This document shows positions 6,848-57,716 of a stretch of DNA of 64,000 nucleotides, one piece after another (position 1 is the stretch's first letter; each line of letters starts with the position of its first letter). Origin of the DNA: a virus. The stretch is from the IMG/VR virus record IMGVR_UViG_3300025195_000002; one strand, written 5' to 3'. Below the pieces are notes generated by a model. The model was given only the letters and a program-made list of their open reading frames with translations, ran no database searches and was not told where the DNA came from. The position numbers were made by a program, and so were the translations under genes.

Positions 6848-7666
6848 ATGCTATATCAGCTAATTAATGGTGAGATGATAGGGGTGGTGGATAAAGACTT
6901 CCCTGGAGAAGATGTCTGTATAAACTCTATGACCATTAAGCATTATTTTGTTGAGACAGGTCAGATCGGTGAATTATTCACTATGCCGTACAGGGCTGGA
7001 CTTTATATGCATGTGTTTGAAGGAAGTAAGGTTATACTTAGTGAAGTCAAACACGATAACCTTCCGCCCAATATCTATAGTGCTATTACGATAGGTGAGT
7101 ATACTACTGTATTGTATATAAAAAATAATACTATACGTTATAGAAAACTAGTACTGTCTATATTTGAAAATGTCTGTGAGGTAATAGAGGATAACTATGT
7201 CTCTAAAGATTGTGCACCCTATAGACCTATTATGGAGGACTTAAATGTTATCAGGACAGCAAGATTTAACGAAGATAAAAACACTGTCACGACGTTATTC
7301 AATTATTTAGATTCTAATCGACCCGTTAAAGATTTAACGTCCATTAAACCTTATGGTTATATGTCTGTATGTAAGGTTACAGACCACGGCATTTATTACT
7401 TAGATGCTTTTAAAAAGCTAACGCTATATAAACACACTGTTGTTGTCAGCACAGATAAAGATAAAGGCGTGAGTGTTGATTTGGTTCGTGAACGTGTATG
7501 GCATAGTAACTATTCGATAGAAGATAACATGTTATCGATTGCTATACATGATGGTGGAGCGCTAATAACCTATAGGGTATTAGATAGTCAAGGTAATTTA
7601 ATTAAAAATAAAACACGTGTAGTCTATGTGAAAGGAAAAGACGTGATTGCACGAGAAACCGTTTAA
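6848..7666 (+). CDS. Hypothetical protein
   Basis: 272-aa ORF with an AAGGA SD; no motif recognised. Confidence 0.75.
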   Translation: MLYQLINGEMIGVVDKDFPGEDVCINSMTIKHYFVETGQIGELFTMPYRAGLYMHVFEGSKVILSEVKHDNLPPNIYSAITIGEYTTVLYIKNNTIRYRKLVLSIFENVCEVIEDNYVSKDCAPYRPIMEDLNVIRTARFNEDKNTVTTLFNYLDSNRPVKDLTSIKPYGYMSVCKVTDHGIYYLDAFKKLTLYKHTVVVSTDKDKGVSVDLVRERVWHSNYSIEDNMLSIAIHDGGALITYRVLDSQGNLIKNKTRVVYVKGKDVIARETV

Positions 7667-40441: not shown

Positions 40442-40451
40442 CCTAAACACC

Positions 40452-40459
40452 TACATTAC
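40452..40459 (+). promoter_or_regulatory. Early promoter motif TACATTAC
   Basis: One mismatch to TATATTAC, directly upstream of the 40475 micro-gene. Confidence 0.6.
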
Positions 40460-40474
40460 TAAAAGGAGACTATC

Positions 40475-40627
40475 GTGAGTGATGGTTTTGATGATTTTGA
40501 TTTTGATATCGACGAAGCAGCACTAGAGCGTGCAAATGCAGAACGTATGGCAGAGCAAGATGAAGAAGCGAAAGCTTTAACGGAAGGCGATGTCGATGGC
40601 TGTGAAGGCGGTGCGTGTAAAATCTAA
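40475..40627 (+). CDS. 50-aa acidic peptide ending in an NrdA-like redox tail (CEGGACKI)
   Basis: AAGGAG SD, GTG start, TAA at 40625-40627. Translation MSDGFDDFDFDIDEAALERANAERMAEQDEEAKALTEGDVDGCEGGACKI. Confidence 0.85.
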   Translation: MSDGFDDFDFDIDEAALERANAERMAEQDEEAKALTEGDVDGCEGGACKI

Positions 40628-40636
40628 AGAACTATA

Positions 40637-40667
40637 GGGAAGACTTTCGGGTCTTCCCGTTATGCCC
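40637..40667 (+). terminator. Hairpin + TATGCC element
   Basis: GGGAAGAC-tttcgg-GTCTTCCC-GTTATGCCC. Confidence 0.8.
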
Positions 40668-42373: not shown

Positions 42374-42991
42374 ATGAGCAACAATGCCAATTTAATAACT
42401 GTAAGGCAGGAAGCCAACAAAGCCCGGATGTTTTTAAAGCAGTTTCTTGATCCGTCTTTGGACAGACGAGCAAGTAATTTCATCCAGGGATTCAACAACG
42501 TTTACGAAGCATCGCTCAGACAACTAGAAAACTTCCAATTCCGCAACACCTCATCGGTTACACTAACACACGTTTTTAATACTGCTGAGATCAACGCGTT
42601 GGGTCTAAGTGAACCTGCCGCGCGTGTAACTATGGCTGTAGTTAAACACCTGCCATACACGGCTATGCAAAATGCCATATATCAAGATCTTGTTAATGAA
42701 ATTGTAATGTTACCAGATAACATTCCTACCGTTAAAATAGGTCGTGGTATCTTTGCTAGGAAAAGGAAGTCAGTTATTAACTTCAACGTGATGCTGCAGG
42801 ATAGGGTATTAGATTGGTATTTGCGCCATATATTAATACTGGGTAACATCCTCATACTCGAACGACACGTCTGTACAGGTAAGCCATCGACCGCTTTACT
42901 AAAGGCTTGTGCGGAACGTGCAAAGAAGTTTGCTGTGCTATATCAAGAATTATTAAAACGCTCACCCCTTTTAAAGGATATAATAAAATGA
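42374..42991 (+). CDS. Hypothetical protein
   Basis: 205 aa; ATGA overlap with the endonuclease gene. Confidence 0.75.
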   Translation: MSNNANLITVRQEANKARMFLKQFLDPSLDRRASNFIQGFNNVYEASLRQLENFQFRNTSSVTLTHVFNTAEINALGLSEPAARVTMAVVKHLPYTAMQNAIYQDLVNEIVMLPDNIPTVKIGRGIFARKRKSVINFNVMLQDRVLDWYLRHILILGNILILERHVCTGKPSTALLKACAERAKKFAVLYQELLKRSPLLKDIIK

Positions 42992-43761
42992 AACAAAAAT
43001 CAGTAGGACTATTCACCATACTACTAGCTACCATTGCTATTGGTATTATCATGTCTGCAAGTACCGGTTATGCAGCGGACATTCCTAAGTCATTCCCTAC
43101 CAGTGTAAAATGGATGGTAGAGGACATCCACAAACCCCCATTGAACCAGACGTTTTATTGTGGGTGTGCTTTTAAAGATAATAAAAGTGTGGATTATTCA
43201 GACTGTGACTATCAGCCTGTTAATATAAACGGCACGCGCGCTAACCGCATTGAAGCTGAACATGCCATGCCTGCGGTTATGTTAGGTGGTGGGTTAATGT
43301 GTTGGGGTGATACACGTAAAGATATTCCTGCGTGTTATGAGTCGGATGGGGATCTGTTATCATCTAGAGCGTGTTGCGAGAAAACTAACATGATCTACGA
43401 GCGGGCGCAAAACGACTTAGTGAATCTAGTGCCCGCCATTGGCGAGCTTAATAACCTACGTTCAGACAAGTTGTTTTCAAATATACATGGTGAGGGGCGT
43501 GACTTTGGTAGTTGTGATGTTGAAGTCAACCAAGAATATGTAGAGGTGCGTGACGTTATGCGTGGGGATGTAGCCCGCATCTTTCTGTATATGTTAGATG
43601 CCTACTCATTACCACTTGATATTGTAATAAGCGATAAAGAACTCATGCATCTCTATTATTGGGATTTAAAAGACCCCGTGAGTGATGATGAGCGTTTACG
43701 TAATCAGCGTATCTGTGAAAAACAAGGTAGTGGTAACCACTACGTAGGTGAATGTGAATAA
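42988..43761 (+). CDS. endA: Secreted endonuclease I (EndA/Dns family, beta-beta-alpha-Me)
   Basis: Signal peptide (..STGYA), TFYCGC, RANRIEAEH, NDLVNLVPAIGELNNLRS, RGDVAR. Confidence 0.88.
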   Translation: MKQKSVGLFTILLATIAIGIIMSASTGYAADIPKSFPTSVKWMVEDIHKPPLNQTFYCGCAFKDNKSVDYSDCDYQPVNINGTRANRIEAEHAMPAVMLGGGLMCWGDTRKDIPACYESDGDLLSSRACCEKTNMIYERAQNDLVNLVPAIGELNNLRSDKLFSNIHGEGRDFGSCDVEVNQEYVEVRDVMRGDVARIFLYMLDAYSLPLDIVISDKELMHLYYWDLKDPVSDDERLRNQRICEKQGSGNHYVGECE

Positions 43762-44547: not shown

Positions 44548-44833
44548 ACTTCTTTTATTAGTGGCATTATTGTGGGTGGCGTACGAGTACTATAAAAAAT
44601 GCACGCCAGTCATCGCCGACATGCGCATCCTAAAAGATACCAGCATGACGTACCAGGAATGGAACACCAACGTCTTTAATCCCGCACTTGTCAAAGCTTA
44701 TCAAACTAAACGCCATGTTAAAGTTATTCGCTATGAGGATGACACTAATCGTGGTAGAATTAACGATAAGTTTGAGATAGACAAGCATTTATTAGAATGG
44801 ATGCGACCTCTACCTAAAGTAGACTTTGAATAA
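44540..44833 (+). CDS. Small membrane-anchored protein
   Basis: GAGGA SD; N-terminal TM segment MFKLLLLVALLWVAYEYYKK. Confidence 0.7.
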   Translation: MFKLLLLVALLWVAYEYYKKCTPVIADMRILKDTSMTYQEWNTNVFNPALVKAYQTKRHVKVIRYEDDTNRGRINDKFEIDKHLLEWMRPLPKVDFE

Positions 44834-44836
44834 ACT

Positions 44837-44867
44837 AAGAAGGGTTAACGCCCTTCTTTTTTTGCCG
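44837..44867 (+). terminator. Intrinsic terminator with a TTTGCCG tail
   Basis: AAGAAGGG-ttaacg-CCCTTCTT-TTTTTGCCG. Confidence 0.8.
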
Positions 44868-44921
44868 TCAATGTTGTATTTAACAGCCCTTAGGGATCTT
44901 ATAATACTAAGGAGAGTGACT

Positions 44922-45401
44922 ATGGGCGCTGAAGCTATAACGATGTTTAGGGGCGAATATTCGTTCTTAAGTAACTTTTACATATTAGAAACCCCGCTTC
45001 CTGAAAACGCTATATTTAAAACACGCTCACATCCCCTGTTTTACTTTGCGTCCTCTGAACACGCTTACGTAGCCTGTAAGACTGATAATGAAGAGATTCG
45101 CAGATATATTGCAAGTCTATATAAACCCGGTGAAGTTAAACGCTATGGTCGATCTATCGACATCGTAGACAATTGGGATGATATCAGACAAGCATGTATG
45201 TGGGATGTGTTATATGCAAAATTCACCTTTAATCCCCATTTAAAAGAAAAGCTACTTGCTACTGGTGACCGAGAACTAGTCGAAGGGAATTGGCATGGTG
45301 ATAAATACTGGGGCGTGTGTCTGCGCACCGGGGAAGGCAACAACCATTTAGGACGTATGCTCATGGAGCTGCGTGATTACTTTAGAGATATAGAGGAATA
45401 A
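44922..45401 (+). CDS. NADAR family hydrolase (YbiA-like)
   Basis: FRGEYSFLSNFY, SSEHAYVACK, VKRYGR..W, KF..NPHLKEKLLATGDRELVEG..DKYWG, GNNHLGRMLMELR. Confidence 0.92.
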   Translation: MGAEAITMFRGEYSFLSNFYILETPLPENAIFKTRSHPLFYFASSEHAYVACKTDNEEIRRYIASLYKPGEVKRYGRSIDIVDNWDDIRQACMWDVLYAKFTFNPHLKEKLLATGDRELVEGNWHGDKYWGVCLRTGEGNNHLGRMLMELRDYFRDIEE

Positions 45402-46503: not shown

Positions 46504-47121
46504 ATGTTGATACCAGATTACGCTATAGAGGCACTTTGCACGGGTGATTGTTCTATCGAAATTGATGGAACGATTGTCAATAATAAAAAGCGTCCTATGA
46601 TTGAGCCATTCATCAATACGTCGGTGAAAGTTAACGACAACGATCAACGTATTCCTAGTTATGGTCTTAGTAGCTTTGGTTATGATGTTCGTCTTGCCCC
46701 TGAGTTTAAACTCTTTAGCAAACCTAACGATGGACGCATTATCGATATCATGAACTTTGATGAGCGTGAGTTTGTTGAAGAAGTGAAGGCCGACAGTGTT
46801 ATCCTGCCTCCAGGTGGGTTGTTGCTATCTCGTACAGTAGAATACTTCTCTATTCCAAATAACGTCATGGGTACATGTTCTAATAAGAGCACATGGGCAC
46901 GTATTGGTATGTTTAGTCTGGTAACACCGCTGGAGCCAGGTTGGGAAGGTAACTTAGTGGTGGAGATCACCAACTGTACCAATCTACCCATGCGTATATA
47001 CGCAGGTGTGGGTATTGCGCAGATAGAGTTTAAAGCATCTAAGGTCCGCCCAAACGTCACTTACGGTGATAGAGGGGGTAAGTACCAGGGTCAGACAGGT
47101 ATTACCGGCAGTAAGCTATAA
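46504..47121 (+). CDS. dcd: dCTP deaminase
   Basis: SYGLSSFGYDVRL, NKSTWARIG, PLEPGWEGNLVVEI, YGDRGGKYQGQ. Confidence 0.95.
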   Translation: MLIPDYAIEALCTGDCSIEIDGTIVNNKKRPMIEPFINTSVKVNDNDQRIPSYGLSSFGYDVRLAPEFKLFSKPNDGRIIDIMNFDEREFVEEVKADSVILPPGGLLLSRTVEYFSIPNNVMGTCSNKSTWARIGMFSLVTPLEPGWEGNLVVEITNCTNLPMRIYAGVGIAQIEFKASKVRPNVTYGDRGGKYQGQTGITGSKL

Positions 47122-49177: not shown

Positions 49178-49825
49178 ATGTTAACTAAAAAACGTTTACT
49201 TCCTAAATGCCTAACCGCCACCCGTTTAAGAATAGGGGCGTTGGAGATACGATGGGCAATACCTAAGTTTGATCGTTCGCTACATTTTCTATTAACGCGT
49301 ACCACCAAACAAATGATCAGTTGGGATGAGGGAAGAAATGACATTACGTTTTCCCTTTACTGGCTATGTATTACTATTCATTTAGGTAATTGGGCCTGTA
49401 CAGAAACCCTTAATTCAGATCAAGAAAGTTTTTGGTACGGTGTTTTTATTAGAAGCGAATCGCTACACTTCTATCTAGGAGGACGGGGTTCTAAATTAGT
49501 AGACTTACCATGGCGGGTGAGTGCTGTTGAGCCTTATAAGGAACATACGCTTGCTGAGACCGTTGGTCTACATTACCATGACCGACCTAACCTTAATAGC
49601 GTGGATGCCAATGTGCGGGTCTACTATATTAAGGTTGCCCCTATCGGATTTCGCTGGATCCCTTTTCTATCGTGGAAGATTTACCGCGCAGAAATTGATT
49701 TTGCCGAGGAAGTAGGCGTCGGTGTGGGTAGTTGGAAAGGTGGGACGTTAAGCACTAGTTTTATGATCCCTAATAAAATGCAATGCGCAGAAGCACTGCG
49801 TTATTATGAAAATAATCACGCATGA
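49178..49825 (+). CDS. Hypothetical protein, aromatic-rich
   Basis: 215 aa; AAGGA SD; followed by a terminator at 49830-49862. Confidence 0.75.
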   Translation: MLTKKRLLPKCLTATRLRIGALEIRWAIPKFDRSLHFLLTRTTKQMISWDEGRNDITFSLYWLCITIHLGNWACTETLNSDQESFWYGVFIRSESLHFYLGGRGSKLVDLPWRVSAVEPYKEHTLAETVGLHYHDRPNLNSVDANVRVYYIKVAPIGFRWIPFLSWKIYRAEIDFAEEVGVGVGSWKGGTLSTSFMIPNKMQCAEALRYYENNHA

Positions 49826-51216: not shown

Positions 51217-52431
51217 GTGGAGATGAAGCCCGTTAGACTATTACTTGACAAGGCTAGGTTGACCGATGGTCAAATTCAACAATTTGACGCTGTTAGAAAA
51301 CTGATAAAGAAAAGAACAGAGGCCTATATTGTAGACCAGCAGCTCGCCTCTAAAATTACTGCAGATACTAGCCCAACCATTAATGATATTATTCAAAGAC
51401 ACATCAAACTTCGACCAGAAACTAAGCCTAATCGTAAATTACTTGATGTGGAGCGGACACGCTACGATGCTAAAATTAAATCGATTGCTGAAAAAGAAGA
51501 GTGGCGCTTTAAAGCCAGTGAAATGTTTCACCGTGAACTCTATAAAACATTAGAGTTACAGTTGGTAGAGAAGACAGAGAAGGCCATTGGCTTAAATAGC
51601 ATTGAATTACTTGATGTTCTTTATCATCCTAATATTGATTATCGTAAATTAGCAGGTATAGTAGAACAAGACCCTTCTTTAATAGACGGCATTCTATCTT
51701 ACCATGCTAATGAAAAGGATAATAATAAAGTCCCTGCCAGCCAAAAAAGTATGAAGGCTATTTTAGGCCATTTAGGGGTCAGCGTATTAGACAATGTCAT
51801 CCCATTAATACTGGCACAGAATGCCGTAAACGTTACCGGTAATCTACGACGGTCGTCAATTGAAAACAAGTTAAAGCGTTTAATGTCTTATAATGTATTA
51901 ACTTTTGGTACGTTGCTGGAACATATGCCTAGGAATAATCCATATCAGCGCCTAGGTGGACTTATGGGGGTGTTAGAGCCACTTAGCTATGCTGTCGTAT
52001 ACCGATTATTTTGTCTCCATCAGGAGAGCGTTAAGGACCGTGTAATGAAGAAGTGGTACCAGCAATCTAACCACACGCTTTATAACGCGCTACAAGACAT
52101 TGACGTTAATTTCGATGTTTTACCTATTTGGTTTGATCAGTTACAATTAAAAGTCAAAGAAACGTTAATCAATTATCTAAAGTGGAATCATACAACACCT
52201 GCGAGGCGTGCTTTAGAAGAAAGCCATGAAAACATTGACTTACATGAGCGATCACAGTCAGGTATACTATATAACCACGCGTATCATTTCGCACAGTTTA
52301 AGTTCCTACTTGAAGGTAAGATGTTAAGTAAGAATCTCATCACCCCTTATTTTTATGGGAATTATATTTCTAATGAACTTAGTAGATCTATGTTAAGTTC
52401 TATCCAAACGTCGACAATGGAGCTTGTTTGA
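51217..52431 (+). CDS. HDOD domain protein with an N-terminal extension (degenerate HD motif)
   Basis: LLDVLYHPNIDYRKLAGIVEQDPSLIDGIL and AILGHLGV are typical HDOD N-terminal helices. Confidence 0.72.
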   Translation: MEMKPVRLLLDKARLTDGQIQQFDAVRKLIKKRTEAYIVDQQLASKITADTSPTINDIIQRHIKLRPETKPNRKLLDVERTRYDAKIKSIAEKEEWRFKASEMFHRELYKTLELQLVEKTEKAIGLNSIELLDVLYHPNIDYRKLAGIVEQDPSLIDGILSYHANEKDNNKVPASQKSMKAILGHLGVSVLDNVIPLILAQNAVNVTGNLRRSSIENKLKRLMSYNVLTFGTLLEHMPRNNPYQRLGGLMGVLEPLSYAVVYRLFCLHQESVKDRVMKKWYQQSNHTLYNALQDIDVNFDVLPIWFDQLQLKVKETLINYLKWNHTTPARRALEESHENIDLHERSQSGILYNHAYHFAQFKFLLEGKMLSKNLITPYFYGNYISNELSRSMLSSIQTSTMELV

Positions 52432-53263
52432 TATGAAAAATAACGCGTTAACTTTATCTATACTTGATAAAATCAGCCACAATAAGCTAACGCTACCTAC
52501 ATTACCTGATATTGCATTGCGAGTTAAACAGACGGCAGAGGAAGATGATTCCACTATACTGGATGTAAGTAACGTCGTTGCAACGGACACCGCATTAACA
52601 ACTAGAATTATCCGCTATTCAAATAGCGCTTTAGTACGTGGTGTATCTCCCATTACAAACGTTCACGATGCCTGTAAACGGATTGGTTTGGTAAAGCTGA
52701 AAAACCTTGCAATCGGGATGGCGATGGAACAACTGTTTGACTCAAACAACAAGCAGATTCAAATTAAAATGCATGATATTTGGATGGATACCGTGACGAT
52801 GACATCGTGTGCGGTTGGCGCTTACTCGGTTTGTAATAAAAGTAAAGACCTGCGTGAAGAGACATTATTCCTTGCGTGTTTGGTCCACAACATCGGTATG
52901 TTAGCAATACTTAACGAAGCTGAAACAAACCCAGCTGAGTATGCAACAGAATCTTACCTTAAAGAGACTGCGGATAGATTAAACCCTATATTAGGTGGTC
53001 AGATCTTAAAGAGTTGGGAGTTTGATCAAGATGTCATCTATGCAGTAGAACGCTGGCGTCGTGGGGATGAGGGGTCTAATGTTAAACGGATTGGTTATGT
53101 TGACTACCTGCGCTTAGGTGCAGCACTCAACGGCTATTTCGGTGATAAACAAGACCGAATATTTAAACATTGTATTAATAAGAACATGTTTAAACACCCT
53201 ACCATACTAGAGTGTGACAAATACCATGAGATCTCACAGGCTGTTTTAGCAAGTTTCTTGTAA
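52424..53263 (+). CDS. Stand-alone HDOD domain protein
   Basis: LTLPTLPDIALRV, VVATDTALTTRIIRYSNS, CKRIG, LACLVHNIGML, LGGQILKSWEF. Confidence 0.9.
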   Translation: MFDMKNNALTLSILDKISHNKLTLPTLPDIALRVKQTAEEDDSTILDVSNVVATDTALTTRIIRYSNSALVRGVSPITNVHDACKRIGLVKLKNLAIGMAMEQLFDSNNKQIQIKMHDIWMDTVTMTSCAVGAYSVCNKSKDLREETLFLACLVHNIGMLAILNEAETNPAEYATESYLKETADRLNPILGGQILKSWEFDQDVIYAVERWRRGDEGSNVKRIGYVDYLRLGAALNGYFGDKQDRIFKHCINKNMFKHPTILECDKYHEISQAVLASFL

Positions 53264-53315
53264 CGGCATAAGCTAACCACCCGGCCTCACGGCTAGGTGG
53301 TTAGGCTTTTATGCG
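53262..53315. repeat. 54-bp bidirectional terminator, exact inverted copy of 25748-25801
   Basis: AACGGCATAAGCTAACCACCCGGCCTCACGGCTAGGTGGTTAGGCTTTTATGCG. Confidence 0.92.
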
Positions 53316-54868
53316 GCACTGGTCTTTTTCATATCCCACCATGGTGTCTCATCGGCACCAGGCTGACTATTTACACCACCCCCTACAGAGCGCCTTGATA
53401 AATCAGAACCATGTATATCGTCCGGAATGTCACCTATTGACTCAAATCGATACACGCAGAAAAGATCTCTATCTGGAGTAATCTTACCTGACTTACGATG
53501 TTTACCACGCATCATCGTAAGATAGCTATGTCCATCGCCCGGTTTTTCAATGTGGATAGTGATTTCTAAATCAGGTTCTTGGTCGATACCTTTAGCAGAA
53601 TCATAATAACCTTTATTGGCGACTTCTTTAACAAAGTCAGAACTTCCCATCCTTACTAACTGTTTGGCATCTGAACTTAACTGATGCGCTGTCAAGAAAG
53701 TAATGGCTTTAGGGTTACAATAGTTACGGACGCGTCTAAATAATTCACGTATACGGAACGCTTCGTTAGTCCCACTGTTACAACCTTGTTTACTCATCAT
53801 GTTAAGGTAATCTACTGATACCAGATGTATCTCATAACCTTCGGCCTGATATCTATCTAGTAATTCAAATAGATCACGGTAGGTGAAGTCAGTCGGATCG
53901 AAACGTAAGAACTTGAAGTGGTAGCCATTCTTACCCAAACGTTCTTTAAGATAAGCAGCTGCTTCTTGGATGTTAACATTTGATACGTCACATTCTTGCT
54001 TAGTCTCATTTTCCTTAAGATTCTTATAGAGAATCAGGATGTTATCTTCTATCTTGTTTTCTAACGAGATGTAGATGATGAGTGGTTTCTTCCTGGGGTC
54101 CAACATATAGGGTTTGTTATATAACGCTACGTGTTTAGGTATATTTAATAACATACCTGATTTAAAGTTGTGTTGAAGTGCACCGATAAGGACAAAGTCA
54201 CCTCGACGTATCCCATTATGGTCGCCTGTCATTCTATTGACACCTTGCCAACCTAACTTCATTATCCCTTCCGTTGAATTAGATTCATTGCCGTCTTTCA
54301 TGACCTTTTCAAGATCATCTATATTGTCGATATCTAACTCAGTTACTAGACCCTGTGCATTTTCAATCATCATGGTAGTGTAGGGCTCTAGCTTATCACA
54401 GAGATCCGCTGCAAACGTCTTCCAGTCCACAGACTCTTCATTAAAGTGAACGTCTTGCGATGCTTGCTTAATAATATTCTTAATTTTATTTCGTGATATA
54501 AACTGACGCAGGGTTCTTATATGGTCGTAGCAGATCTGCTGAATGCGTTCTTCTGACTCTACCTCTACCATACCTAGTTCAACGGCCTGGAATAGAGACT
54601 CGTCGTCTGTGATATTAACACGCAGGCGTTGAATAATGGTGTCTCTATCGTGTTGGTAACCATCAGGCTCTTCTAGCATATAGAGCAGTGTATCTCGCAG
54701 TGCAACCAGTGTGTCTTTGGAAGAGCCAGATACCGCACTATTAAATGTAGGTTTAAGTGCCTCGATAACGTCTTTAATAATAGGGGCTGACTGACCCGTA
54801 TTTTCCTTTAACTGCCCTTCTCGATAAAGTAACATTATCGACTTAACAAGCAATAGTTTTGAGTCCAT
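53309..54868 (-). CDS. dnaB: DnaB-like replicative helicase (phiKZ gp118 type)
   Basis: GALQHNFKSG Walker-A variant, ISLEN, SVDYLNMM, TAHQLSS, RGKHR. Confidence 0.85.
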   Translation of the reverse strand: MDSKLLLVKSIMLLYREGQLKENTGQSAPIIKDVIEALKPTFNSAVSGSSKDTLVALRDTLLYMLEEPDGYQHDRDTIIQRLRVNITDDESLFQAVELGMVEVESEERIQQICYDHIRTLRQFISRNKIKNIIKQASQDVHFNEESVDWKTFAADLCDKLEPYTTMMIENAQGLVTELDIDNIDDLEKVMKDGNESNSTEGIMKLGWQGVNRMTGDHNGIRRGDFVLIGALQHNFKSGMLLNIPKHVALYNKPYMLDPRKKPLIIYISLENKIEDNILILYKNLKENETKQECDVSNVNIQEAAAYLKERLGKNGYHFKFLRFDPTDFTYRDLFELLDRYQAEGYEIHLVSVDYLNMMSKQGCNSGTNEAFRIRELFRRVRNYCNPKAITFLTAHQLSSDAKQLVRMGSSDFVKEVANKGYYDSAKGIDQEPDLEITIHIEKPGDGHSYLTMMRGKHRKSGKITPDRDLFCVYRFESIGDIPDDIHGSDLSRRSVGGGVNSQPGADETPWWDMKKTSAA

Positions 54869-55553: not shown

Positions 55554-57716
55554 ATGTCCTTATTAAGCATCAAGAAAAAGGCAACCGGTTTAGGTGCCGC
55601 TAAAATGAGCATCCACACGCTTCTGCAGGAACAGGGTGCTGAAATGTCTAACCAGTCTATTGCCAACAACCTGGTATCTCTGGAATCATTGGACGATCAC
55701 GCTCGCTCTGATCTGGAAACGTCTTTTGAACATTGTTCAAATGAACTGAAGACTATCCTGTCTGAAACCATGGGTGAAGGGTTTGAGGTAAGTGACATCG
55801 GTCTGGAAGCCGCTGCCATCACTACTTTGGCAATCGGTAACCCAGCTGCGTACATGCAGTCTGCAACTCGCATTGGTATTGAGGGTATGATTGAATTACC
55901 TTCTTACGGTACTGCCGGTTCAATGGACTATCGTCTGTCTCCGTCAAATGAAGCATTCGACGAAGCTGAACTGCGTAAATTTGCTCCACACTCAATTGTA
56001 TTCAACGCCCTGGCCGCTGTGCAGGACCCGTTTGCTGAAGCATTCTTCCCGACGTACGTTATGTCGCCTGACAATGCTGGCGCTGAAGTATCTGTTCAAC
56101 GTACCATGGTTTTCAATGAAGTTAGCCGTAGCCCTACTGGTCAAGTTACTAACTTCAATAAAGTTAACCTGGTTGAAGCTGTTCAGGATGCCAAAGTCCT
56201 TGAAAACCAAACTACTGCATTGGTTCCAGTTTACCTGGCCGATGACAGCCGCGCTGAATACTTTGTTGACACTGACGTCCTTGCCCCTGTTGATACTAAA
56301 GTTGATGGCGACGAGTTCCAAACTTCTGCACTGCGCATCGATGCACAAATGGACCTGGTTGCAATGGCAACTTCTCCAAACCGCATCAACGCTCAGATCG
56401 ACAGCACTGACTCAATCGACGGTCGTGTTGAACTGAAAACTGTTTACGTTCGTGTACGTGATGCAGCCAACCTGGCTGATCCTGCTACTGGTAACGACGA
56501 AGTATTATCTATCAGCGTTAAAGGTCTGCCACGCACTACCTTCCAGCCGTCTGCTGAAGGCGATAGCCGTGAGATGACTCTTACTTTTGCTAACAACGCT
56601 CTGTTGTTAAGCGATGCGACCAAAGCTGTTGATGGTTCTGCTGCTGACGCGCTGTCTGGTCTGTCTGGTTACACTGCATCTGTTGATATTAAACTGAATG
56701 GTACTATCAACGTTGAAACCGGTGCTCTTGAACTGAACGCGTCTCCAATGCGTGTTAATGGTCTGGTTGATGCAAGCGGTACAAATATCGCTACTGCAAC
56801 TGGTGCTGGTAAGACAGCAATTGATAGCTTCTCTATGGAAGTTATCGGCTACAGCCTGGATGCTCGCCTGACTAATGCGAACCGTCGTACTCGTGGTATC
56901 CTGATCGATCGTACTGAAGTTAAAGAGCGTTACACTGTACCACTGGGTGCACCAATCTCTGCACCTCAGCCAATTCATGGTTCAAGTGACAGCGCTTCTG
57001 ATCTTCGCGCTCTGGTAACTACTGCACGTACTCGTACGTCTAACAACGCTGTGACCACGCTGCTTAACTATGTTGACAGCCTGAAATCAACTGTTGCTGT
57101 TGCCGCTGCGACGGGTGTTACTCCACAAGTACAAGGTATTGGCCGTCTTCTGGTTAAGCCTTACTTCCAGGAAGAAACTATCGATGCAGTTCAGGTAATC
57201 AACTCTACCAAGTCACACGAGAAAGCACAAGACTTCTCTGCGGTATTGGTTGATGCAATCCGTCAAATTGCTTACAAGATGATGGATCGTTCAAACTACG
57301 CTGCAGCGTTGGAAATGGAAACCGGCGGTGCCAACATTAAGCCTAAGTTGATCATCGGTACAGATAACGTTATCGCTCAGCACATCATGGTTTCTGGTGA
57401 TGATCGCACTGCAAGCATCGGCATGGACTTTGAAGTTGTATCTTCACCTGACTCTCGTATGAGTGGTAAGATCGTTCTTGGTTTCGGTCGCGGTGCAAGC
57501 GGTAAGCCTGACGCACTTGGTTTTGGTACTCACTTCTACATGCCTGAGCTTACTAGCACAGCGCAAGTATCACGTGACAATGCTACTACCAAAGAAACTC
57601 AGGTACAGCCTCGTGATCTTCACGTTCCTCATCTGCCAGTATTGGCTGTGATCAACGTTGAGAACATCGACCAGGTCTTCACCGATTACATTAAAGGTGT
57701 TCCTGCACGTAGCTAA
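55554..57716 (+). CDS. Major capsid protein precursor (phiKZ gp120 type)
   Basis: 720 aa; propeptide with SLE/GLE/GIE/SNE sites; QDPFAEAFFPT, RTRGILID, VPLGAPIS; synteny between dnaB and the nvRNAP gene. Confidence 0.9.
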   Translation: MSLLSIKKKATGLGAAKMSIHTLLQEQGAEMSNQSIANNLVSLESLDDHARSDLETSFEHCSNELKTILSETMGEGFEVSDIGLEAAAITTLAIGNPAAYMQSATRIGIEGMIELPSYGTAGSMDYRLSPSNEAFDEAELRKFAPHSIVFNALAAVQDPFAEAFFPTYVMSPDNAGAEVSVQRTMVFNEVSRSPTGQVTNFNKVNLVEAVQDAKVLENQTTALVPVYLADDSRAEYFVDTDVLAPVDTKVDGDEFQTSALRIDAQMDLVAMATSPNRINAQIDSTDSIDGRVELKTVYVRVRDAANLADPATGNDEVLSISVKGLPRTTFQPSAEGDSREMTLTFANNALLLSDATKAVDGSAADALSGLSGYTASVDIKLNGTINVETGALELNASPMRVNGLVDASGTNIATATGAGKTAIDSFSMEVIGYSLDARLTNANRRTRGILIDRTEVKERYTVPLGAPISAPQPIHGSSDSASDLRALVTTARTRTSNNAVTTLLNYVDSLKSTVAVAAATGVTPQVQGIGRLLVKPYFQEETIDAVQVINSTKSHEKAQDFSAVLVDAIRQIAYKMMDRSNYAAALEMETGGANIKPKLIIGTDNVIAQHIMVSGDDRTASIGMDFEVVSSPDSRMSGKIVLGFGRGASGKPDALGFGTHFYMPELTSTAQVSRDNATTKETQVQPRDLHVPHLPVLAVINVENIDQVFTDYIKGVPARS

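What the first reader, a model, noticed from the sequence alone, without database searches (positions are those of the whole stretch)
40475..40627. Free-standing copy of the ribonucleotide reductase (NrdA) redox tail as an early micro-gene
Seen: an unannotated 50-aa ORF with an AAGGAG SD, an early-promoter motif (TACATTAC, 40452) just upstream, and its own hairpin terminator (40637). It ends DVDGCEGGACKI. Known: E. coli class Ia NrdA ends DDGCESGACKI, and its Cys-x4-Cys pair (C754/C759) takes electrons from thioredoxin or glutaredoxin and re-reduces the active site. Inference: the phage expresses this swinging arm without the enzyme. It could be a trans-acting electron shuttle that boosts host or phage RNR turnover, a complement for a tail-less phage NrdA, or a Trx/Grx decoy. 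The acidic-aromatic N-terminus (FDDFDFDID) could be a docking motif. It heads an island that also carries thyA and dcd.
Basis: partly seen in the sequence, partly recalled or inferred. Interest (0 to 1): 0.85.

Follow-up and report, generated by a model that had tools for sequence, protein, structure and literature searches.

The report
Phage micro-protein copying reductase tails
A giant phage with no ribonucleotide reductase of its own makes a conserved 50-residue protein ending in an exact copy of the cysteine tail that recharges the host's reductase; it belongs to a large undescribed family found in other jumbo phages, Neisseria and Moraxella.

Summary
ORF 40475-40627 is a real gene under strong purifying selection (pN/pS 0.06-0.07). 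It has a conserved promoter-like 12-mer, an AAGGAG ribosome-binding site, a start codon that is GTG or ATG in near-identical relatives, and a hairpin with compensatory changes.

Its last nine residues, GCEGGACKI, equal the C-terminus of class Ia NrdA in many Gamma- and Betaproteobacteria. Nothing else in it resembles NrdA, so it is not a decayed nrdA end.

A profile of 19 such micro-proteins finds 338 protein clusters, all labelled hypothetical. Members include Salmonella phage SPN3US gp032, several Erwinia jumbo phages, Neisseriaceae (always between iscS and iscU) and Moraxella.

All 12 complete or near-complete phage genomes that carry the gene lack an RNR large subunit. The five checked also lack thioredoxin and glutaredoxin. 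The gene sits in thyA/dcd/MazG modules.

In this phage's clade the N-terminus (FDDFDF) also resembles the NrdB tail that docks on NrdA, but it resembles the SSB tip about equally well.

Best reading: a free auxiliary redox tail acting on host RNR. Whether it boosts or inhibits is unresolved. A role as complement of a tail-less phage NrdA is rejected.

Earlier notes of this scan report the same kind of gene on other DNA. I found no paper describing it.

The parts
40447..40459 (+). Promoter-like motif (ACACC + TACATTAC), probably of the phage's early (virion RNA polymerase) class
   Evidence: The extended motif recurs at 1056, 16670, 18842, 40452, 47189, 52498 and 57905, all on the + strand. It is conserved in diverged homologs L005-L007. 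Assigning it to the early class rests on analogy with jumbo-phage early promoters, which are conserved AT-rich ~10-mers (PMC7598289).
40463..40468 (+). Shine-Dalgarno sequence AAGGAG
   Evidence: Lies 6 nt upstream of the start codon. Conserved in all homologous loci.
40475..40627 (+). Micro-gene, 50 codons plus TAA
   Evidence: pN/pS is 0.063 and 0.071 against L005 and L007, with 19-20 synonymous and 5-6 non-synonymous differences. The start is GTG here and ATG in otherwise identical L140 and L142.
40481..40507 (+). N-terminal acidic-aromatic motif (residues 3-11, DGFDDFDFD), a candidate docking motif
   Evidence: Best match to NrdB C-terminal tails (DDFDDFDL type) has shuffle p 0.0013; homologs P0003 and P0006 give p <= 0.0003. 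It matches SSB C-tips equally well. Hydrophobic residues follow an i, i+3, i+5 spacing, as in NrdB tails (read from the sequences).
40514..40588 (+). Central acidic, helix-prone linker (residues 14-38)
   Evidence: The AlphaFold2 single-sequence model gives helices at 14-25 and 32-38 with low confidence (mean pLDDT 58.6). A similar linker occurs in the 61-aa protein of Vibrio phage 275E43-1.
40589..40624 (+). C-terminal NrdA-type redox tail (residues 39-50, Cys43 and Cys48, then K-I at the C-terminus)
   Evidence: The last 9 residues are identical to the NrdA C-terminus of many Gamma- and Betaproteobacteria. These residues are invariant in alignment A1. In the last 12 codons, 7 of 8 differences from L005 are synonymous.
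40637..40658 (+). Stable hairpin ending the micro-gene unit
   Evidence: The stem carries compensatory substitutions in L005-L007. No U-tract follows it.
40660..40667 (+). TTATGCCC motif after the hairpin, a likely TATG-type (late) promoter for the next gene
   Evidence: Conserved in L005-L007. The hairpin-plus-TTATGCC unit also precedes the genes at 6848, 35155, 43817 and 51217. TATG is the phiKZ late promoter element (PMC7598289).
45404..46282 (+). thyA (context: nucleotide-metabolism island)
   Evidence: PF00303, E 1e-70.
46504..47121 (+). dCTP deaminase-like gene (context)
   Evidence: PF22769, E 9e-28.

Best explanation
The gene encodes a free, mostly disordered acidic micro-protein. Its C-terminus is a working copy of the class Ia NrdA redox tail (Cys-x4-Cys-Lys-Ile at the C-terminus).

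The phage has no RNR, thioredoxin or glutaredoxin, so its partners must be host proteins.

Proposed mechanism:
1. Host thioredoxin or glutaredoxin reduces the tail, as it does the NrdA tail.
2. The N-terminal acidic-aromatic motif holds the peptide on host NrdA, probably in the cleft that binds the NrdB tail.
3. The tail enters the NrdA active site and re-reduces the disulfide left after each turnover.
4. This sustains or raises host dNTP output while the neighbouring thyA, dcd and related enzymes shape the pool.

Shown: a real, selected gene; tail identity; a family-wide invariant tail; no phage RNR, Trx or Grx; placement in nucleotide modules.

Inferred: binding to NrdA, reduction by Trx/Grx, and above all the sign of the effect (boost rather than block).
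For: - The gene is real. pN/pS is 0.06-0.07, and promoter motif, ribosome-binding site, start codon and hairpin are conserved.
- The tail equals host-type NrdA tails. It is the only invariant part across 19 diverse members and 338 clusters.
- 0 of 12 complete or near-complete phage genomes carrying the gene have PF02867. Of the five checked for Trx and Grx (three of them at least 99% complete), none has either.
- The gene lies in modules with thyA, dcd, dCMP deaminase or MazG. This holds in the window and in Seoulvirus, Erskinevirus, Derbicusvirus and Alexandravirus.
- In this clade the N-terminus matches NrdB C-tails (p <= 0.001).
- There is precedent that a separately encoded Cys tail can serve an RNR in trans: NrdJb of the split class II enzyme (PMC4520616).
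- The NrdA tail, the NrdB cleft and the Trx cycle are established biochemistry (bioRxiv 10.1101/2024.06.16.599213).
Against: - No binding or redox data exist.
- Host NrdA already carries its own tethered tail, so the gain from a free copy is not obvious.
- A peptide that occupies the NrdB-tail cleft would compete with NrdB and so inhibit. C-terminal NrdB peptides are classical RNR inhibitors (my own knowledge).
- The NrdB-like motif is N-terminal and has no free carboxylate.
- That motif is significant only in this clade and in one Moraxella. It is absent in the Neisseria, Erwinia-phage and SPN3US members.
- The same motif matches SSB tips equally well.
- Bacterial members sit in the isc operon or next to an Rrf2 regulator, not next to nrdAB.
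Confidence: 0.4

Rival explanations
1. RNR inhibitor or throttle, working like yeast Sml1 or like NrdB C-terminal peptides. The N-terminal motif occupies the NrdB-tail cleft on NrdA and the tail plugs the route to the active site, so NrdB and NrdA's own tail are excluded. In Neisseriaceae it would be made together with the isc operon and slow dNTP synthesis when iron or Fe-S supply is stressed. In phages it would stop host replication or redirect nucleotide flow.
For: - The motif matches NrdB tails in this clade and in Moraxella lacunata against its own NrdB (p 0.002).
- Bacteria that carry the gene still have an intact NrdA tail, so they do not need a spare one.
- Bacterial copies lie under isc or Rrf2-type control.
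- Competition between Sml1 and the R1 tail, and inhibition by R2 peptides, are established (my own knowledge).
Against: - Phages with no RNR depend on host dNTP synthesis or on salvage, so blocking it looks costly.
- The gene travels with dNTP-producing enzymes.
- The NrdB-like motif is not family-wide.
Confidence: 0.25
2. A thioredoxin- or glutaredoxin-directed peptide. As a tail look-alike it is a substrate or competitor of the host reductant. It either diverts reducing power away from host NrdA or couples a second reductant pool to another target.
For: - The tail is the known recognition element for Trx and Grx (Grx1-tail peptide work, my own knowledge).
- Resident NrdA tails carry Ala where the micro-proteins of the same genomes carry Glu (CAGGAC versus CEGGAC). 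This would fit a different reductant preference.
Against: - A dithiol peptide turns over and does not trap Trx, so it is a weak decoy unless something keeps oxidising it.
- This reading does not explain the conserved terminal Lys-Ile or the N-terminal motifs.
Confidence: 0.12
3. The target is not RNR. The peptide might deliver or accept thiol equivalents at IscS/IscU, given its isc-operon position. Or its N-terminus might mimic the SSB C-terminal tip and dock on SSB-client replication or repair proteins.
For: - In Neisseria, Eikenella and Kingella the gene is always between iscS and iscU.
- The window's motif scores 37 against an SSB tip (p < 0.003). The phiEaH2 variant matches its host-type SSB tip (p 0.005).
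Against: - The one invariant element is the exact NrdA tail, including the terminal Lys-Ile or Lys-Leu.
- Phage copies sit with nucleotide-metabolism genes, not with Fe-S or replisome genes.
- The SSB-like motif lacks the terminal Pro-Phe and free carboxylate that SSB clients bind (my own knowledge).
Confidence: 0.1
4. Not a functional protein of this kind: a decayed nrdA 3' fragment, a chance ORF, or a lanthipeptide-type RiPP precursor (the ESM Atlas's automatic name for the nearest cluster).
For: The Atlas's first hit is auto-named 'FxLD family lantipeptide', with score 0.88, which that tool rates as a lead only.
Against: - pN/pS is 0.06.
- Only 10 residues align to NrdA.
- Related clusters number in the hundreds.
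- The Cys region has no Ser or Thr, so lanthionine cannot form.
- No Lan or radical-SAM genes were seen among the neighbours scanned: the window and the Neisseria, Moraxella and Thalassolituus loci by Pfam, and the cultured phages by their annotation.
- No NCBIfam or Pfam hit at E <= 1 apart from noise.
Confidence: 0.03

Closest known systems
C-terminal redox tail of class Ia RNR alpha (E. coli NrdA Cys754/Cys759)
   Same: Same Cys-x4-Cys-Lys-Ile C-terminus preceded by acidic residues. Nine residues are identical to NrdA of many Gamma- and Betaproteobacteria and 8 of 9 to E. coli.
   Different: It is not attached to an RNR catalytic domain. Nothing upstream of the last 10 residues aligns. It is encoded by a phage without any RNR gene.
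NrdJb, the small subunit of the split class II RNR of Pseudomonas aeruginosa (PMC4520616)
   Same: A separate polypeptide whose C-terminal cysteines carry out thiol-disulfide exchange for the catalytic subunit in trans.
   Different: NrdJb is encoded next to nrdJa, is needed because NrdJa lacks the tail, and is a larger folded protein. Here the enzyme belongs to the host (or, in bacteria, still has its own tail) and the gene lies elsewhere.
Sml1-type small disordered RNR regulators of yeast, and NrdB/R2 C-terminal peptide inhibitors
   Same: A small, acidic, disordered protein that could engage the large subunit where the small-subunit tail and the large-subunit tail act. In this clade it carries an NrdB-tail-like motif.
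   Different: There is no sequence relationship. Sml1 has no Cys-pair tail. Inhibition by this peptide is not shown. This comparison rests on my own knowledge of those systems.
Uncharacterised micro-proteins of cultured phages and bacteria (SPN3US ACQ60_gp032, pEa_SNUABM_30 gp036, phiEaH2 gp153, N. meningitidis NMO_1220, Moraxella and Thalassolituus hypothetical proteins)
   Same: Same family by profile search. They share the invariant tail and, in many members, a VEGGVD-like segment before it.
   Different: The N-terminal halves differ by clade: FDDFDF plus a helix here, IPGLDPDA in enterobacterial jumbo phages, DLDNLDNLL in Neisseria. None has a described function.

Membership tests
Class Ia RNR alpha subunit (NrdA) | Catalytic ten-stranded barrel (Pfam PF02867 and related domains) | tested here: not met
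   No Pfam hit. BLASTP against a Thalassotalea NrdA aligns only residues 41-50.
Class Ia RNR alpha subunit (NrdA) | Cys-x4-Cys followed by Lys-Ile/Leu at the extreme C-terminus, after an acidic run | tested here: met
Class Ia RNR alpha subunit (NrdA) | Tail cysteines exchange electrons with Trx/Grx and with the active-site disulfide | not testable with these tools
   Needs biochemistry.
Free-standing RNR-tail micro-protein family (undescribed; profile A1) | Acidic protein of 38-90 aa ending in C-[EAVT]-G-G-A-C-K-[IL] | tested here: met
   The window protein is the first row of A1. The profile finds 338 clusters at E <= 0.01.
Free-standing RNR-tail micro-protein family (undescribed; profile A1) | Carried by phages that lack their own RNR large subunit | tested here: met
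   0 of 12 complete or near-complete carrier genomes have PF02867.
Split-RNR tail subunit (NrdJb type) | Encoded beside a tail-less catalytic subunit gene | tested here: not met
   The phage has no RNR gene. Bacterial carriers keep an intact NrdA tail.
NrdB C-terminal alpha-binding tail | Acidic motif with hydrophobic residues at i, i+3 and i+5 | tested here: met
   F5, F8 and F10 fit the spacing. The best match is DDFDDFDL-type tails, shuffle p 0.0013.
NrdB C-terminal alpha-binding tail | Located at the extreme C-terminus of a ferritin-like beta subunit | tested here: not met
   The motif is N-terminal, at residues 3-11.
NrdB C-terminal alpha-binding tail | Binds the cleft on NrdA | not testable with these tools
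   Needs a binding assay or a structure.
SSB C-terminal tip | Acidic run ending in Ile-Pro-Phe with a free carboxylate | tested here: not met
   The motif is similar (score 37, p < 0.003), but it is internal and lacks Pro-Phe.
FxLD-type lanthipeptide precursor | Ser/Thr plus Cys in the core, Lan enzymes nearby, match to the NCBIfam model | tested here: not met
   No Ser or Thr in the last 12 residues. No NCBIfam hit. Neighbours scanned are phage genes of unknown function with no Lan-type domain, nucleotide-metabolism genes, or isc genes.

The most novel reading that the evidence does not exclude
The family is a new class of small linear-motif regulators of class Ia RNR, shared by phages and bacteria. 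Each member joins a constant copy of the alpha-subunit redox tail to a variable docking motif, which in this phage copies the beta-subunit tail. One 50-residue peptide would then engage both tail-binding sites of host NrdA and set dNTP output: phage-controlled during infection, and Fe-S or stress-controlled in Neisseria and Moraxella. This would be the first bacterial or phage counterpart of the eukaryotic Sml1/Spd1 type of RNR control, or its activating mirror image.
Probability: 0.3. Interest if true: 0.85.

Novelty: new variant of a known kind. Interest (0 to 1): 0.72.

Why it matters
RNR sets the supply of DNA precursors and is a drug target. Its tail chemistry has been studied for decades, yet I found no free-standing tail protein described for class I enzymes.

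The family is large: 338 clusters. It occurs in tractable systems, including Salmonella phage SPN3US, the Erwinia amylovora jumbo phages, Neisseria and Moraxella. A simple peptide-plus-RNR assay could test it directly.

It would show how phages without RNR genes handle host dNTP synthesis. It might also reveal a post-translational layer of RNR control in bacteria that is tied to Fe-S or stress regulons.

Tried and rejected
- Complex prediction of the window protein (alignment A1) with a Thalassotalea NrdA (alignment A2): no verdict, score 0.14 against a mark of 0.32. It counts neither for nor against binding.
- Single-sequence searches found only close relatives. These were phmmer on 1.84 billion representatives, word-indexed searches in 'near' and 'longer' length modes, PDB sequences, Pfam, PHROGs and NCBIfam. 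The family appeared only after scanning for the back-translated tail.
- No DNA match in the phage collection. No whole genome is held for the window.
- Host identification through the phage's endonuclease I found nothing. The host remains unknown. Alteromonadales are suggested only because their NrdA and NrdB tails match.
- Literature searches found no description of such a protein. The DRT4 preprint concerns phage NrdAB as a defence trigger and is only background.
- 'Universal NrdB-tail mimicry' is rejected. The Neisseria, Eikenella, pEa_SNUABM_30 and SPN3US variants do not match NrdB tails, their own where known (p 0.13-1.0).
- 'Tail tracks the resident NrdA exactly' is rejected. Neisseria, Moraxella and Thalassolituus NrdA have CAGGAC while their micro-proteins have CEGGAC.
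- The lanthipeptide and decayed-fragment readings are rejected (see rivals).
The test was rerun from files.

Full report
**What is there**

The window is part of a phiKZ-like jumbo phage. Its major capsid protein lies at 55554-57716 (PF25620, E 2e-195), and no cultured phage is more than 38% identical to it.

ORF 40475-40627 encodes 50 residues ending DVDGCEGGACKI. AAGGAG lies 6 nt upstream of the GTG start. In two otherwise identical metagenomic relatives the start is ATG.

Against the diverged relatives L005 and L007 the ORF shows 19-20 synonymous and 5-6 non-synonymous differences, giving pN/pS of 0.06-0.07. In the last 12 codons, 7 of 8 differences are synonymous. It is a protein-coding gene under strong constraint.

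**Signals around the gene**

The 8-mer TACATTAC alone is not above chance. It is part of CACC + TAYATTAC, which recurs seven times in the window, always on the + strand and mostly just upstream of genes. The motif is kept in L005-L007.

Jumbo phages with their own RNA polymerases have a conserved AT-rich ~10-mer at early promoters and TATG at late ones (PMC7598289).

The hairpin at 40637-40658 is stable. It has compensatory stem changes in L005-L007 and is followed by a conserved TTATGCC motif. The same hairpin-plus-motif unit precedes four other genes in the window. The micro-gene thus looks like a one-gene unit between its own promoter and a structured 3' end.

**The tail**

A scan of one genome per prokaryotic species for the back-translated last nine residues plus a stop codon gave 119 loci. 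Most are the 3' ends of full-length nrdA in Pseudoalteromonas, Shewanella, Moritella, Thalassotalea, Pectobacterium, Gilliamella and others. E. coli NrdA differs at one position.

Only the last 10 residues align to NrdA. The gene is therefore not a decayed nrdA end.

**A large family**

About 20 of the bacterial loci and 16 of the 17 viral loci carry short acidic ORFs of 38-90 aa with the same tail, not nrdA.

A profile of 19 of them (A1) finds 338 clusters at E <= 0.01, all named hypothetical.

Members in cultured phages:
- Salmonella phage SPN3US gp032
- Erwinia phages pEa_SNUABM_30 gp036, phiEaH2 gp153 and EarlPhillipIV gp116
- Cronobacter phage CR5 gp113
- a 61-aa variant in Vibrio phage 275E43-1

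The tail, C-[EAVT]-GGAC-K-[IL], is the only invariant part. The N-terminal halves differ by clade.

**Genomic company**

Contigs of this phage clade have no RNR large subunit, small subunit or class III enzyme, including the 190,650-bp contig with terminal repeats.

Counting all complete or near-complete carrier genomes that I checked, 0 of 12 have PF02867. The five checked for thioredoxin and glutaredoxin have neither.

The one viral hit that does have an RNR (L141) carries the tail on a full-length NrdA.

The gene lies near these nucleotide-metabolism genes:

| Phage or genus | Neighbouring genes |
|---|---|
| This window | thyA, dcd |
| Seoulvirus, Erskinevirus | thyA, MazG |
| Derbicusvirus | MazG |
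| Alexandravirus | dCMP deaminase |

I did not correct the missing-RNR pattern for phylogeny.

**Bacterial members**

In Neisseria, Eikenella and Kingella the gene always lies between iscS and iscU, about 70 nt upstream of iscU.

In Moraxella lacunata it lies directly upstream of an Rrf2-family regulator.

These bacteria keep a normal NrdA tail. It reads CAGGAC where their micro-proteins read CEGGAC. So the micro-protein does not replace a missing tail.

**The N-terminus**

NrdB tails of marine Gammaproteobacteria end DDFDDFDL or DDFDDFEL.

The window protein begins MSDGFDDFDF. Its relatives P0003 and P0006 carry SDFDDFDL and DFDDFEL.

In composition-preserving shuffles, and taking the best of 35 distinct NrdB tails each time, p is 0.0013 for the window protein, under 0.0004 for P0003 and 0.0003 for P0006. 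Moraxella lacunata matches its own NrdB tail with p 0.002.

The match fails for the Neisseria, Eikenella, Erwinia-phage and SPN3US variants.

The same motif matches SSB C-terminal tips of FDDFDDDIPF type equally well. The phiEaH2 variant resembles its host-type SSB tip (p 0.005).

The motif is N-terminal, so it lacks the free carboxylate of both models. I treat 'NrdB-tail mimic' as a good lead for this clade, not as a finding.

**Mechanism**

It is established that the NrdA tail shuttles electrons from Trx or Grx to the active site, and that the NrdB tail anchors beta on alpha.

A separately encoded Cys tail can serve an RNR in trans, as NrdJb does.

From this and the context, I read the protein as a free auxiliary redox tail working on host RNR. 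A throttle role, like Sml1 or R2 peptides, is a strong rival, because occupying the NrdB cleft should inhibit. Sequence cannot settle the sign of the effect.

**Earlier notes of this scan**

Earlier notes report free RNR-tail micro-proteins in other phages without RNR, and detached tails in Saccharibacteria. They agree with this reading, but they are not independent evidence.

New in this report:
- the link to cultured jumbo phages
- the position inside the isc operon in Neisseriaceae
- the NrdB/SSB-like N-terminal motif
- the selection and signal analysis for this locus

Noticed in passing
window 1056, 16670, 18842, 40452, 47189, 52498, 57905 (+ strand): A recurrent 12-mer, CACC + TAYATTAC (one copy ends in T), mostly just upstream of genes. 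It is probably this phage's early promoter class. TA[CT]ATTAC occurs 10 times on the + strand and never on the - strand.
   Followed up: partly
window, upstream of the genes at 6848, 35155, 40694, 43817 and 51217: A repeated unit: a GC-rich hairpin followed by TTATGCC and then a ribosome-binding site. It looks like a transcript-end structure fused to a TATG-type (late) promoter.
   Followed up: partly
window 49178-49825 (+): The C-terminal part of this 215-aa protein matches the CBASS inhibitor Acb3 family (PF25187, E 1.3e-13).
   Followed up: no
window 42907-43761, 44826-45401, 52424-53263, 53309-54868: Endonuclease I (PF04231), a NADAR domain protein, an HDOD domain protein and a divergent DnaB-like helicase. 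An HDOD protein is unusual for a phage.
   Followed up: no
L026 5063-5188 and equivalent loci L008, L033, L042, L049, L085, L110, L126: In Neisseriaceae a 42-43-aa member of the family is a fixed part of the isc operon, between iscS and iscU, with its own ribosome-binding site. Public records call it hypothetical or call it with over-long starts.
   Followed up: partly
L127 2501-2740 (viral contig of 41.7 kb): An 80-aa protein with a non-acidic N-terminal domain carries the same tail (AGCEGGACKI). The tail can evidently be joined to different front ends.
   Followed up: no
proteins P0054 and P0061: Two 89-aa gene calls from short ENA contigs join the first ~46 residues of IscU to a Kingella-type micro-protein. 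They may be a real rearrangement or an assembly or gene-call artefact.
   Followed up: no
L153/L149 (Eikenella) and L152/L150 (N. meningitidis): In both genomes nrdA and nrdB lie on the same contig within a few kb, while the tail micro-gene sits elsewhere in the isc operon. The RNR operon itself looks ordinary.
   Followed up: no
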